A DNA stretch of 64,000 nucleotides, taken from assembly GCA_964106915.2 (NCBI GenBank), contig OZ066914.1. One strand, given 5' to 3'. Numbering within the stretch: the first letter of the stretch is position 1; each line of letters begins with the position of its first letter. This DNA is from Podarcis gaigeae. Its lineage: Eukaryota. Positions 9,001 to 12,000 of the stretch are shown here, one piece after another. The position numbers were made by a program.

Positions 9001-12000
9001 TCTAGTGTCTGTGCTTAAAGGCTGCACTATTATATACTGTTTTCTAAGGAATCCTCGATGCTGTGAAACACAAATACCCTGGAAAAAAGCAATTTCTATG
9101 TAAATTGTTGAACAAATACCCAGGCTATTCAGTAAATGTCCTTAAATGGCATCTCATCCCCTGTCTTATGAGAGAAGGAATCACTCTCATCTTCTGAACA
9201 CTCAGGAATTTGGAAGGGACACAAAGCATATGGAACAAGGCAGACCCAGCACATTCTTTATACCAGGAAACAACCAGATAATTATATCTCAGCAGGGGCC
9301 CCAGTTCAAGTCCGGCACAATTTGTGCAGTAATTAATTCAGCTGAAGCAAGGGGTGGGGCAGCTTTCACACAAAACTAGCCCAATTCAGGGTAATGGTAT
9401 GTTTTCTTTTACTATTAAAATATTCCAAAAATAAAGGGCTAGTTTAGGCAGATCATTTGGTATTAATGTAGGTAGCTCTGACCTTCCTCAGGCACACACT
9501 CCTATGGATAAATGTAATTAGCAATGGGTGGAACCGTCCCTTTTATTTTGGTGTTGGATATCCATGGAAACACTGCAGTGTGTCTCTGGTACCTGCAGGG
9601 ATGAGGAGGAAGAAGAGGAAAGATTCCTTCTGGATCAGACCAGAAGGTTCAGTACCTTCCTTCAACCTGTGGTCAATCACATGCCTTTGGGAATCAACAA
9701 GCTGCGTGTAAAGGCAAAGGCCTTCTTTTGCTGTTGCTCCCCTTCAACTGCTAACTCAGTTGTAAATCATGGGCAAATTTGTTTAATGTTATCAGTGTCA
9801 ATCAGGAATAGCCAATGTGATGCCCTCCTCCAGATGTTGCTGGACTGCAGCTCCCATGATCCATGGCCATTTTCCACACTGACTGAACCTGGTGAGAGTC
9901 GCAGTCCACATCTGGAGGACAAACATTGGCTATCTCTGATGTAGATTATGATAGTTCATACTATAGACAAGCACCATTATTTAATGTTATCACCGTGATT
10001 AGGTAAAATACAAGATGTACTAGAAGAAGAGTAGAAGAAGAGTTTAGATTTGATATCGCACTTTATCACTACCCGAAGGAGTCTCAAAGTGGCTAACATT
10101 CTCCTTTCCCTTCCTCCCCCACAACAAACACTCTGTGAGGTGAGTGGGGCTGAGAGACTTCAAAGAAGTGTGACTGGCCCAAGGTCACCTGCATGTGGAG
10201 GAGCGGGGACATGAACCCGGTTCCCCAGATTACAAGTCTACCGCTCTTAACCACTACACCACACAGGCAAACAAAACTTGCAATTCACATGTTGTGGGGA
10301 TGTAGCCAAATTGAATCCAAAACTTAGGTGTGAATGGTATCTCTGCTGTCCTAGTTTTCAAACCTGGATGCTCCCTGAAGCTCTCAACATAGAAGCTTCC
10401 AGCATTTTGACCACATGAGAGTTATTTATAGAAAATTACAGAAGCTTCCTTCCCATATGCTACACATCTGTAAAAGTTTAATAGTTTCCTATTGTGGTAA
10501 GTGAAATGTTTATGCTACAAGGATTGTTATACCACACGTTTAGGTAAACCTTAATCAAAACCTTAATCAGTGGGGAGCGGGACCACTGACTCACAACCCC
10601 CCCCCAAAAAAAAATGTACAGCAAAACTCTGGTTGCAATTGTGAAACATTTCTCATTGGCTCATATAATTCAATGTACATGTTCTTAATTGTTTACCTTT
10701 TAAAAATGAACCCAGCCCGGAGGACTTTACAGTTTGCATTTCTTTTATATTTCTGCGCTTACAGCTTAAATTACATTGACATGGTGTTTTTCTCATTTCC
10801 ACTGGAAATGGCAGTGGCCAAGCATTTCACCATCTCCATAGCACAACCCACAACAGAGCTGCTAATACTGGATGACGTTGAACAAACAGCAATTCTCCAC
10901 TGCCTAGCAATTAAAGCTGATAAGAGGCCTGTGTTGTTTGGGAATTCTTTTCAGCTCTAGCAGTGAGCTCTGGAATCGCCAGCCACTGAAGGTTTTTATG
11001 ACATTGCTTTTTTTGAACGCAAGCAGTCTAGCTAGAGCTGATAAGAGCTTATGTATGCTTGGCTGGTGTTTGCCCATGACCAAGACTGTTGACAGGGGGT
11101 TCATTGTTGTGAAAGACAGCAACTAATCCCCAAGGACACCCTGGAACATTCCAACACTTTTCACAGAGGTGCTACTTTCTCACTGAATCTGGCATTGCTG
11201 TCATTCCACAAGTCTCTTTTCTTTGATGGCCGTGTATGTAGTGGGTTAGAGAACAAACAGAAATCATAATAGAACTTGCAGCAAGGTATGTTTTAGATAA
11301 ATCACACCTAGCTATGAGTTCTATTGCTATGGATGTTTGTTCACGAAGAGCCGGACATGACTAAACGACTAAACAACAACAAAAAGCCCCACTGAGCTAA
11401 CTTTGTTTTGTTGTTTAGTCGTGTCCGACTCTTCGTGACCCCATGGACCAGAGCACACCAGGCACTCCTGTCTTCATCTAGCAATATGGGGATCCCACAG
11501 TGAAACTGGTGTAGAATCAAAATCTTTCCATTGTCACTATAGCAGAAGTCTCTTTTGTTGTTGTTTAGTCATTTAGTCGTTTAGTCTTTGTCACCCCATG
11601 GACCAGAGCACGCCAGGCACTCCTGTCTTCCACTGCCTCCCGCAGCTTGGTCAAACTCATGCTAGTAGCTTCGAGAACACTATCCAACCATCTCGTCCTC
11701 TGTCGTCCCCTTCTCCTTGTGTCCTCCATCTTTCCCAACATCAGGGTCTTTTCCAGGAAGTCTTCCCTTCTCATGAGGTGGACAAAGTATTGGAGTCTCA
11801 GCTTTACGATCTGTCCTTCCAGTGAGCACTCAGGGCTGATTTCCTTAAGAATGGATAGGTTTGATCTTCTTGCAGTCCATGGGACTCTCAAGAGTCTCCT
11901 CCAGCACCATAATTCAAAGGCATCAATTCTTCGGCGATCAGCCTTCTTTATGGTCCAGCTCTCACTTCCATACATCACTAACTGAGCTAACGTACTCCCA

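What the first reader, a model, noticed from the sequence alone, without database searches (positions are those of the whole stretch)
11473..11645. Templated insertion: ~170 bp copied from the BovB locus at 42.2 kb into a different BovB 30,690 bp away
Seen: 11473-11645 matches 42163-42335 with only 2 mismatches. The tract includes ~70 bp of non-BovB flank, the left TSD of the 42-kb BovB and its private tail variant (TTTAGTCATTTAGTCGTTTAGTCTTTGT). The remaining BovB bodies (11646-11980 vs 42336-42670) differ at about 29 of 335 sites by manual count. The recipient keeps its own original tail (11402-11475) and its own TSD ACTGAGCTAAC. The left junction has a TTC microhomology and the right junction lies within BovB homology. 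Inference: a break in the 11.5-kb BovB was repaired by one-ended invasion of the same-orientation BovB on the other side of KCNQ1 exon 1. Synthesis ran past the donor tail into unique flank, then rejoined by microhomology. The donor's complete TSD pair fixes the direction as 42 kb -> 11.5 kb and hints at physical proximity of the two sites across the promoter.
Basis: partly seen in the sequence, partly recalled or inferred. Interest (0 to 1): 0.72.

Follow-up and report, generated by a model that had tools for sequence, protein, structure and literature searches.

The report
Repair patch copied between two BovBs
About 155 bases, including unique DNA that lies beside one old retrotransposon copy, were pasted into a second copy 31 kb away, most likely when a break was mended by copying; it is a clean but ordinary example of a known kind of repair scar.

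Summary
Window 11473-11645 equals 42163-42335 with 2 of 173 mismatches. The copy carries 71 nt of non-repeat flank, the 42-kb element's left target-site duplication (TSD) and its odd tail. It sits inside a second, same-strand BovB fragment that keeps its own tail and its own perfect 11-nt TSD pair.

The net insert is 155 nt (11476-11630). Its left joint is a 3-nt TTC microhomology. Its right joint lies in BovB homology, somewhere in 11590-11672. The direction 42 kb to 11.5 kb is well supported. KCNQ1 exon 1 does lie between the two loci, on the minus strand.

The most likely origin is DNA-templated repair synthesis from the nearby BovB, which is a known class of event. Which joint formed first is unresolved.

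24 of the 29 "body" mismatches sit in one 156-nt patch of changes private to the 42-kb copy. Outside that patch the bodies differ by 4 of 161, which is indistinguishable from the copied tract. So divergence neither places the right joint nor dates the event.

Genome-wide uniqueness of the flank, read support and orthologous empty sites could not be checked. Interest is low to moderate.

The parts
11339..11385 (+). Short BovB 3' tail fragment in the opposite orientation. With the old tail it forms a quasi-palindrome (arms 11341-11376 and 11403-11438).
   Evidence: I2: 36 nt, 89% complementary, 26-nt spacer. DNA hairpin -30.7 kcal/mol, z -8.5, 0 of 200 shuffles as stable.
11391..11401 (.). Left TSD of the recipient BovB (ACTGAGCTAAC)
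   Evidence: D3: 11/11 identical to 11981-11991.
11402..11475 (-). Recipient's own BovB tail (74 nt), canonical tail type. Its last three bases, TTC (11473-11475), are shared with the donor flank and form the left-joint microhomology.
   Evidence: 91.8% over 73 nt to the 34-kb BovB.
11476..11543 (.). Copy of unique (non-BovB) flank of the 42-kb locus (42166-42233)
11544..11554 (.). Copy of the donor's left TSD (AGAAGTCTCTT). It has one change, T at 11549.
   Evidence: Both donor TSD copies have C at that position.
11555..11589 (-). Copy of the donor's variant BovB tail. This is the last stretch with donor-diagnostic states.
   Evidence: alignment; 7 sites in 11554-11589 where the 42-kb and 11.5-kb copies agree against the 34-kb copy.; the encoded residues T132 and K133 are seen in 0 of 119 homologues.
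11590..11672 (-). Interval that must hold the right joint. It is BovB sequence with no site that tells donor from recipient.
   Evidence: the first site where the 11.5-kb copy sides with the 34-kb copy against the 42-kb copy is 11673.
11673..11980 (-). Recipient BovB body, 5'-truncated at 11980. It lacks the 42-kb copy's private patch.
   Evidence: 16 sites in 11673-11847 where the 11.5-kb and 34-kb copies agree against the 42-kb copy; reading frame open, 88-92% identical to Podarcis-named proteins.
11981..11991 (.). Right TSD of the recipient BovB
   Evidence: D3.
42163..42244 (.). Donor: unique flank (42163-42233) plus left TSD (42234-42244)
42245..42854 (-). Donor BovB fragment (610 nt) with variant tail, one stop and one frameshift. 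Right TSD at 42855-42865.
42363..42537 (-). Patch of substitutions private to the 42-kb copy.
33832..34195 (+). Third BovB fragment, used as the outgroup
25030..25329 (-). KCNQ1 exon 1 (coding part matched)

Best explanation
A DNA lesion in the tail of the 11.5-kb BovB fragment was repaired by copying DNA from the same-strand BovB fragment 30.7 kb away on the same molecule.

The new synthesis covered the donor's variant tail, its left TSD and 68-71 nt of unique flank. One joint formed by pairing within BovB homology, somewhere in 11590-11672. The other formed at a 3-nt TTC microhomology between the recipient's old tail and the donor flank. The net result is a 155-nt insert that duplicates 46 nt of BovB tail. 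The donor was left intact.

Two orders of events give the same product.
The right-hand broken end invades the donor BovB and is extended leftwards past the tail into the flank. It is then released and joined to the left end by microhomology-mediated end joining. This is homologous recombination with non-canonical termination.
- (b) Microhomology first. A 3' end ending in ...CTGTCTTC primes on the donor flank, copies rightwards into the donor BovB, and returns to its own template through BovB homology. This is the MMBIR/FoSTeS type.

I lean slightly to (a). The confidence given is for the DNA-templated class as a whole.

Shown: the copy, its extent, its direction, the joint features, and the single TSD pair around the composite. 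Inferred: the lesion, the polymerase steps, and the order of the joints. The adjacent 36-nt quasi-palindrome of two BovB tails is a possible but unproven cause of the lesion.
For: **A copy of this particular locus.**
- Non-repeat flank, TSD and variant tail are all shared at 171 of 173 positions.
- Only two copies exist in the window.

**Direction.**
- The donor TSD pair is complete and sits directly against the BovB, so the flank is not part of that insertion.
- At both tract mismatches the 42-kb copy keeps the state shared with a comparator: its own right TSD at 11549, and the 34-kb copy at 11592.

**One perfect TSD pair (11/11) encloses old tail, insert and body.**
- The recipient therefore entered as one element.
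- The 155-nt insert has no TSD or tail signal of its own.

**Joints.**
- The left joint has 3-nt microhomology.
- The right joint is in register within BovB.

**Mosaic.** There are 0 of 120 sites in 11553-11672 where the 11.5-kb copy sides with the 34-kb copy against the 42-kb copy, but 16 of 175 such sites in 11673-11847 (p 0.0003).

**Location.**
- Donor and recipient are 30.7 kb apart on the same strand.
- A retrocopy landing that close by chance has probability about 4e-5. This assumes a 1.5-Gb genome, a recalled figure.

**Experimental precedent.**
- Homologous recombination that runs out of homology is terminated by microhomology-mediated rejoining to the second end (PMC5104497: abstract, section 7).
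- Template switching at microhomology with return to the original template is described for MMBIR (PMC4888836: passages).

**Hairpin next to the joint.** -30.7 kcal/mol, z -8.5. Inverted repeats are described as break-prone (PMC3855049 and PMC10164571: search listing and first lines of the abstracts only).
Against: - No empty (pre-event) allele, no reads and no genome-wide search were available, so a third, unseen donor copy or an assembly fault is not excluded.
- Outside the 42-kb copy's private patch, the recipient body differs from the donor by 4 of 161 and the copied tract by 2 of 173 (p 0.43). Nothing therefore shows that the insert is younger than the recipient element, as a post-insertion repair model requires.
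- For route (a), if the patch predates the event, the invading end had only about 42 nt of near-perfect identity (11631-11672) before a stretch that differs at 24 of 156 positions. That is a poor substrate for homologous pairing.
- For route (b), 3 nt of microhomology is only marginally more than chance (about 5%).
- Both tract mismatches fall on the recipient side (2 of 2, or 4 of 4 if the tract runs to 11672). This is not significant (p 0.5 and 0.125) and is unexplained.
- The hairpin's right arm ends 37 nt to the left of the joint, so its role is conjecture.
Confidence: 0.68

Rival explanations
1. Polarity variant, counted inside the 0.68 above: a microhomology-first replicative template switch (MMBIR/FoSTeS). 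A stalled or collapsed fork near the BovB-tail quasi-palindrome released a 3' end ending in TTC. That end primed on the donor flank, copied about 115-200 nt, and returned to its own template through BovB homology.
For: - 3-nt microhomology at the left joint.
- A stable hairpin next to the joint.
- A short templated tract from a donor tens of kb away.
- Return to the original template is part of the published model (PMC4888836 passages).
- This route does not need pairing across the patch that differs at 24 of 156 positions.
Against: - 3 nt is weak, about 5% by chance.
- There is only one switch pair and no further complexity.
- Nothing in the sequence gives the direction of synthesis.
Confidence: 0.3
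2. Made by reverse transcriptase, in one of two ways.
- The whole composite arose in one BovB insertion event. Reverse transcription began on a BovB RNA tail (74 nt) and jumped to a read-through transcript of the 42-kb locus.
- Alternatively, a cDNA or RNA of that transcript patched a break, with the 5' side resolved by BovB homology.
For: - A single TSD pair encloses everything.
- The tract is not demonstrably younger than the recipient body.
- Both BovBs are sense to KCNQ1, so one upstream-initiated transcript could in principle carry the donor.
- Chimeric LINE insertions by template switching are in print for L1 (10.1101/2025.02.02.635956 and PMC4476161: search listing only).
- DNA patches templated from distant regions are described as class 2 TSIPs (PMC5110952 abstract).
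Against: - The single-jump version predicts that 11673-11847 is donor-like. Instead it lacks 16 donor-private states, so the patch must have arisen later or a second, in-register jump must be added.
- The jump would run from one internal position to another rather than end to end.
- The copied RNA's 3' end would be unique flank, not the BovB tail that this kind of element is thought to need (recalled).
- Landing 30.7 kb from the source has probability about 4e-5 for a free retrocopy.
- There is no sign of splicing at the joint.
Confidence: 0.1
3. The donor was not the 42-kb locus itself but an unseen paralogue of it, for example a segmental duplicate elsewhere. The 30.7-kb spacing would then be irrelevant.
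For: - The two copies are not identical (2 of 173).
- The genome outside the window could not be searched.
Against: - Both differences are on the recipient side.
- Within the window, homology to the 42-kb locus stops exactly at 42163, and the wider flank has no other copy.
Confidence: 0.07
4. Assembly artefact: a chimeric join or mis-polished repeat.
For: - The region is repeat-rich.
- A second 169-nt pair at 100% identity exists in the same window.
- No reads were available.
Against: - The left joint has only 3 nt of overlap, which graph or overlap assemblers do not join on.
- The copies differ at 2 sites.
- The product has the anatomy of a repair event, with an intact TSD pair and an in-register right side.
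Confidence: 0.05

Closest known systems
Homologous recombination with non-canonical, microhomology-mediated termination, also called 'one-sided invasion' or coupled homologous/non-homologous repair (PMC5104497: abstract and section 7 read; Belmaaza and Chartrand 1994: title only, seen in the reference list)
   Same: - One side lies in homology.
- Synthesis runs beyond the homology.
- The product is rejoined to the second end at a few nt of microhomology.
- The donor is unchanged.
   Different: - Those are induced breaks in reporters, mostly with the sister chromatid as donor.
- Here the event is natural and presumably germline, with an ectopic donor 30.7 kb away that differs from the recipient body at 29 of 335 positions.
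- The lesion itself is not observed.
[quoted passage not shown] Only the title was seen, in the reference list of PMC7407515. The paper is not held, so its content is recalled.
   Same: A dispersed LINE copy serves as the ectopic donor for repair of a break in another LINE copy.
   Different: - That was an experimental I-SceI break in mouse L1.
- Here the element is a BovB-type element in a lizard-like genome, and unique donor flank was captured.
MMBIR/FoSTeS templated insertions (PMC4888836, passages read)
   Same: A short templated tract from a nearby locus, microhomology at a joint, and return to the original template.
   Different: - Those usually give larger or complex rearrangements with microhomology at every joint.
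- Here the second joint uses tens of nt of repeat homology.
Class 2 templated sequence insertion polymorphisms (PMC5110952, abstract read)
   Same: An insert templated elsewhere, with no TSD or poly(A) of its own, consistent with a patch at a break.
   Different: - The paper's section headings say those patches derive from RNA of distant regions.
- Here the template is local and includes sequence upstream of a gene, and one joint is homologous.
LINE 3' transduction and chimeric retrocopies (L1 chimeras: search listing only)
   Same: Flanking unique sequence travels together with a LINE 3' end.
   Different: - The flank lies inside the composite, followed by another BovB tail.
- The donor's TSD lies between its tail and the flank.
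- The insert has no TSD of its own.

Membership tests
Templated insertion by DNA repair synthesis (ectopic gene conversion with non-canonical termination, or MMBIR) | The inserted sequence has an identifiable template elsewhere that includes non-repeat sequence. | tested here: met
   171 of 173 positions identical to 42163-42335, including 71 nt of flank.
Templated insertion by DNA repair synthesis (ectopic gene conversion with non-canonical termination, or MMBIR) | One joint lies in extended homology between recipient and donor. | tested here: met
   The right side is in register within BovB. The joint is bounded to 11590-11672.
Templated insertion by DNA repair synthesis (ectopic gene conversion with non-canonical termination, or MMBIR) | The other joint has only microhomology or added bases. 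| tested here: met
   TTC, 3 nt. Chance of 3 nt or more is about 5%.
Templated insertion by DNA repair synthesis (ectopic gene conversion with non-canonical termination, or MMBIR) | The donor locus is left intact. | tested here: met
   The donor has both TSD copies and a continuous flank.
Templated insertion by DNA repair synthesis (ectopic gene conversion with non-canonical termination, or MMBIR) | A pre-event allele exists: the recipient BovB without the insert. | not testable with these tools
LINE-mediated retrocopy or 3' transduction (class 1 TSIP-like) | The inserted piece is flanked by its own TSD. | tested here: not met
   The only direct repeats around 11476-11630 are the BovB tail homology (D2) and the outer TSD of the whole composite (D3).
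LINE-mediated retrocopy or 3' transduction (class 1 TSIP-like) | The 3' end of the copied RNA carries the element's own tail or poly(A) at the joint. | tested here: not met
   The 3'-side end of the copied piece is unique flank joined at TTC.
LINE-mediated retrocopy or 3' transduction (class 1 TSIP-like) | The transduced flank lies outside the source element's TSD and travels with many copies. | tested here: inconclusive
   There are two copies in the window only. The genome-wide count could not be made.
BovB-type (RTE-clade) LINE fragments. It is 5'-truncated and has a TSD. | tested here: met
   - A 137-aa open frame has 8000 of 8000 scored candidates at E <= 1e-10.
- The best named hits are 'Reverse transcriptase domain-containing protein' from Podarcis muralis and hypothetical proteins from P. 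lilfordi, at 88-92% identity.
- TSDs are shown.
- No repeat library was available to confirm the family name.

The most novel reading that the evidence does not exclude
The patch was templated by RNA in cis. Both BovB fragments are sense to KCNQ1. A transcript starting upstream of the 42-kb locus and running through the promoter into intron 1 would carry the donor sequence and be tethered at the recipient. A reverse transcriptase, possibly BovB's own, could have copied it to bridge a break in the germline. Together with the second short local copy in the window (169 nt, 4.7 kb apart, 100% identical), this would point to a recurrent, local, roughly 170-nt patching process in this genome.
Probability: 0.06. 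Interest if true: 0.65.

Novelty: new member of a known kind. Interest (0 to 1): 0.27.

Why it matters
This is a well-preserved natural example of a repair scar whose donor, recipient, direction and both joints can be read from one 64-kb window. The two TSD pairs act as built-in controls.

Such cases show that dispersed retrotransposon copies serve as ectopic repair templates in a reptile germline and can carry unique flanking DNA with them. They also give material for estimating how often and how far such copying reaches.

The case does not reveal a new mechanism. It touches no coding sequence: the insert lies 13 kb from KCNQ1 exon 1, in what is presumably intron 1.

The practical lesson for the scan is that a raw mismatch contrast between repeat copies can be driven by a local patch in one copy. 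It should be checked with an outgroup before it is read as a conversion boundary.

Tried and rejected
- **Subfamily feature or transduction from a master element: rejected.** The donor's TSD lies between its tail and the flank, and the flank continues into unique sequence. The tail variant's residues occur in 0 of 119 homologues.
- **Flank as a tRNA-derived SINE or known RNA: rejected.** There are 0 tRNA genes, 0 Rfam matches at gathering score in the whole window, and no further copy in the window.
- **Two independent adjacent BovB insertions: rejected.** There is only one TSD pair.
- **Low divergence of 11820-11980 as a second tract converted from or to the 11.5-kb copy: not supported, though not excluded.**
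  - The excess lies in the 42-kb copy's patch. Its residue is absent from three Podarcis-named proteins at 9 of 52 codons there.
  - The same count is 1 of 53 in 11820-11978 and 2 of 32 in the tail-proximal segment.
  - It is 4 of 53 in the part beyond the 11.5-kb copy's truncation, which that copy could not have converted.
- **Editing-type hypermutation of the patch: rejected.** The 16 changes mix G>A (3), C>T (4), A>G (2), T>C (2) and transversions (5), with no strand bias.
- **Single-breakpoint test.** The best breakpoint is at 11646, but 194 of 5000 permutations do as well. A three-segment model (3/191, 24/156, 4/161) fits much better.
- **Literature.** The 'BovB' plus 'gene conversion' search found 36 papers, of which 12 were listed. 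I read titles and first lines only, and none concerned exchange between BovB copies. One search failed on a term that was too long and was re-sent correctly. The Tremblay 2000 paper is not held.
- **Not attempted.** No supplements were consulted.
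Full report
**Observation.**

I read both loci and compared them without gaps at offset 30690.
- 11473-11645 vs 42163-42335 differ at 2 of 173 positions (11549 T/C, 11592 C/G).
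- 11646-11980 vs 42336-42670 differ at 29 of 335.
- To the left of 11473 (59 of 73 mismatches) and to the right of 11980 (84 of 120) there is no homology.
- The window holds no N.

BLAST of the 42-kb BovB against the window finds four other BovB-like places:
- the 11.5-kb body;
- the 11.5-kb 'old tail' at 11403-11475;
- a third fragment at 33832-34195 on the other strand;
- a 22-nt match at 11359-11380, which is part of the 47-nt inverted tail at 11339-11385.

The 84-nt flank plus TSD, and a 347-nt wider flank, have no other copy in the window. Every other hit is 19 nt or shorter with E >= 0.045.

**Anatomy.**

The donor BovB (42245-42854, element on the minus strand) is flanked by AGAAGCCTCTT at 42234-42244 and 42855-42865.

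The recipient composite (11402-11980) is flanked by ACTGAGCTAAC at 11391-11401 and 11981-11991 (D3). Inside it, from left to right, lie:
1. a canonical BovB tail of 74 nt (11402-11475);
2. 68 nt of the donor's unique flank (11476-11543);
3. a copy of the donor's left TSD with one change (11544-11554);
4. the donor's variant tail (from 11555);
5. BovB body running to 11980.

A 46-nt direct repeat at 93% identity (11430-11475 and 11585-11630, spacing 155) shows that the net gain is 155 nt (D2).

At the left joint the recipient reads ...CTGTCTTC and the donor reads ...GCATTTC before the shared ATCTAGC. That is 3 nt of microhomology. Three or more nt is expected at about 5% of random joints.

**Direction.**
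- The donor's TSD sits directly between its tail and the flank, and the flank runs on into unique sequence. The flank is therefore native to the 42-kb site and is not cargo of a master element.
- At 11549 both donor TSD copies have C. At 11592 the donor agrees with the 34-kb copy. Both tract differences are therefore changes on the recipient side.
- The variant tail encodes ...KTKRLND. Its T and K are seen in 0 of 119 homologous proteins covering those columns, which supports 'private'. This is only a sample: the best 120 of 8000 scored candidates.

**Where the copied tract ends, and a correction.**

I used the 34-kb fragment as an outgroup.
- In 11553-11672, the 11.5-kb copy shares 8 states with the 42-kb copy against the outgroup, and 0 of 120 sites go the other way.
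- In 11673-11847, 16 of 175 sites show the 11.5-kb and 34-kb copies agreeing against the 42-kb copy (p 0.0003).
- The last donor-diagnostic state is at 11589 and the first non-donor state is at 11673. The mismatches at 11646 and 11664 are private to the 11.5-kb copy and say nothing about the joint.

The 29 'body' mismatches are not evenly spread.
- The best three-segment model is 3/191 (11473-11663), 24/156 (11664-11819) and 4/161 (11820-11980).
- Within the body alone, the break at 11820 is matched by only 8 of 5000 permutations.

The excess belongs to the 42-kb copy.
- 15-16 of the changes are private to it.
- At protein level its residue is absent from three Podarcis-named proteins at 9 of 52 codons in the patch, one of them a stop.
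- The same count is 1 of 53 in the next segment, 2 of 32 in the tail-proximal segment, and 4 of 53 in the part beyond the recipient's truncation.

Outside the patch the two bodies differ by 4 of 161, which is not distinguishable from the tract's 2 of 173 (p 0.43). Three things follow.
- The right joint is bounded to 11590-11672 only if the patch predates the event.
- Divergence does not show that the insert is younger than the recipient element.

The origin of the patch is unexplained. Two of its states (I84, R87) are the majority in more distant homologues. That hints at conversion from an older copy, but 4 states are unseen in 120 homologues. The substitutions show no strand-coordinated editing pattern.

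**Surroundings.**
- The minus-strand frame at 25030-25329 matches solved KCNQ1 chains at E 2.5e-25, and the match ends at residue 129. KCNQ1 exon 1 therefore lies between the two loci and is read on the minus strand.
- The 11.5-kb locus is 13 kb downstream of exon 1, presumably in intron 1, although exon 2 was not located. The 42-kb locus is about 17 kb upstream. Both BovB fragments are sense to the gene.
- Only this one exon was searched.
- Sixteen nt to the left of the old tail lies a 47-nt BovB tail in the opposite orientation (11339-11385). The two tails form a quasi-palindrome with 36-nt arms, 89% complementarity and a 26-nt spacer (I2). As single-stranded DNA it folds at -30.7 kcal/mol, with z -8.5 and 0 of 200 shuffles as stable. 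The joint lies 37 nt beyond the right arm.
- The best named relatives of the BovB frame are from Podarcis lilfordi and P. muralis at 88-92% identity. This suggests a lacertid source but does not prove it.

**Mechanism.**

The product needs a template-directed copy from the 42-kb locus, with one homologous and one microhomologous joint and an unchanged donor. Two DNA-level routes fit equally well.
Termination of homologous recombination by microhomology-mediated rejoining has been shown in mouse cells (PMC5104497: abstract, section 7).
- Microhomology first: priming at the microhomology with return through BovB homology, as in MMBIR/FoSTeS (PMC4888836: passages).

I give the DNA-templated class 0.68. 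I lean slightly to homology first, because the donor is a same-strand homologous repeat in cis. Against this route, if the patch is old it offers only about 42 nt of good identity next to the break.

The reverse-transcriptase rival gets 0.10.
- It is kept alive by the single TSD pair and by the lack of an age difference.
- It is weakened because the 11.5-kb copy lacks the donor's patch, so an extra event or a second in-register jump is needed.
- It is also weakened because the joints are at internal positions, and because a free retrocopy would land this close to its source with probability about 4e-5. That figure assumes a 1.5-Gb genome, which is recalled.

An unseen paralogous donor (0.07) and an assembly fault (0.05) cannot be excluded without the genome and reads.

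**Comparison with what is known.**

The event works like one-sided or non-canonically terminated ectopic gene conversion, or like a small MMBIR insertion. It resembles class 2 templated sequence insertions (PMC5110952: abstract), except that its template is local and one joint is homologous.

It fails the tests for a LINE-mediated retrocopy or 3' transduction. The insert has no TSD of its own, and no tail lies at the 3' joint.

Repair of a broken LINE from other endogenous LINEs has an experimental precedent. I saw only the title of that paper (Tremblay, Jasin, Chartrand 2000) in a reference list. It is not held, and I recall its content.

A search for 'BovB' with 'gene conversion' found 36 papers and listed 12. 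By their titles and first lines, none is about exchange between BovB copies. I did not read them, and this is not a claim that nothing is in print.

**What stayed unchecked.**
- Genome-wide uniqueness of the flank.
- Read support for the joints.
- Orthologous empty sites.
- Chromatin contacts.

No supplementary files were consulted.

**Verdict.**

The feature is real and accurately described. The direction and the general class of the event are well supported. The specific order of steps and the proximity inference are not. It is a new instance of a known kind of event, and interest is about 0.27.

Noticed in passing
window 57826-57994 and 62483-62651: A second short local copy: 169 of 169 nt identical, same orientation, 4657 nt apart, with unrelated flanks on both sides. 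The 62.5-kb copy follows an A-run. A weak third relative lies at 24154-24252 (78-82%), and its homology begins 7 nt to the left of the 57.8-kb boundary, which hints that the 57.8-kb copy is in its native context. This may be another templated patch, or an assembly duplicate.
   Followed up: partly
window 42363-42537: A patch of 15-16 substitutions private to the 42-kb BovB, including a stop codon. The rest of that element is much closer to Podarcis-type proteins. The origin is unknown.
   Followed up: partly
window 11339-11438: Two BovB tails lie tail to tail, 16 nt apart, forming a stable quasi-palindrome (-30.7 kcal/mol, z -8.5). This may be a fragile site, or a hint that BovB inserts next to existing tails.
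   Followed up: partly
window 25030-25329 (minus strand): KCNQ1 exon 1, inside the GC-richest part of the window (24-26 kb, GC 0.55-0.63). A second GC peak lies at 21-22 kb.
   Followed up: partly
window 22504-22726, 36989-37221, 40896-41098, 42875-43117, 49028-49273: A repeat family of about 200-240 nt (78-93% identical among copies). One copy starts 10 nt to the right of the 42-kb BovB's right TSD. It was not identified.
   Followed up: no
window 2539-2904, 15412-15735, 16895-17298, 31211-31585, 39517-39893, 46846-47226: Another dispersed repeat family of about 370-400 nt, 75-88% identical, in both orientations. It was not identified.
   Followed up: no
window 33951-33975: The 34-kb BovB fragment carries an internal (TCTTC)n-like expansion relative to the other two copies, and a 6-nt deletion further on.
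   Followed up: no
window 14239-14375 and 15305-15388: Two self-complementary (palindromic) stretches of 139 nt and 86 nt, at 89% and 86%.
   Followed up: no
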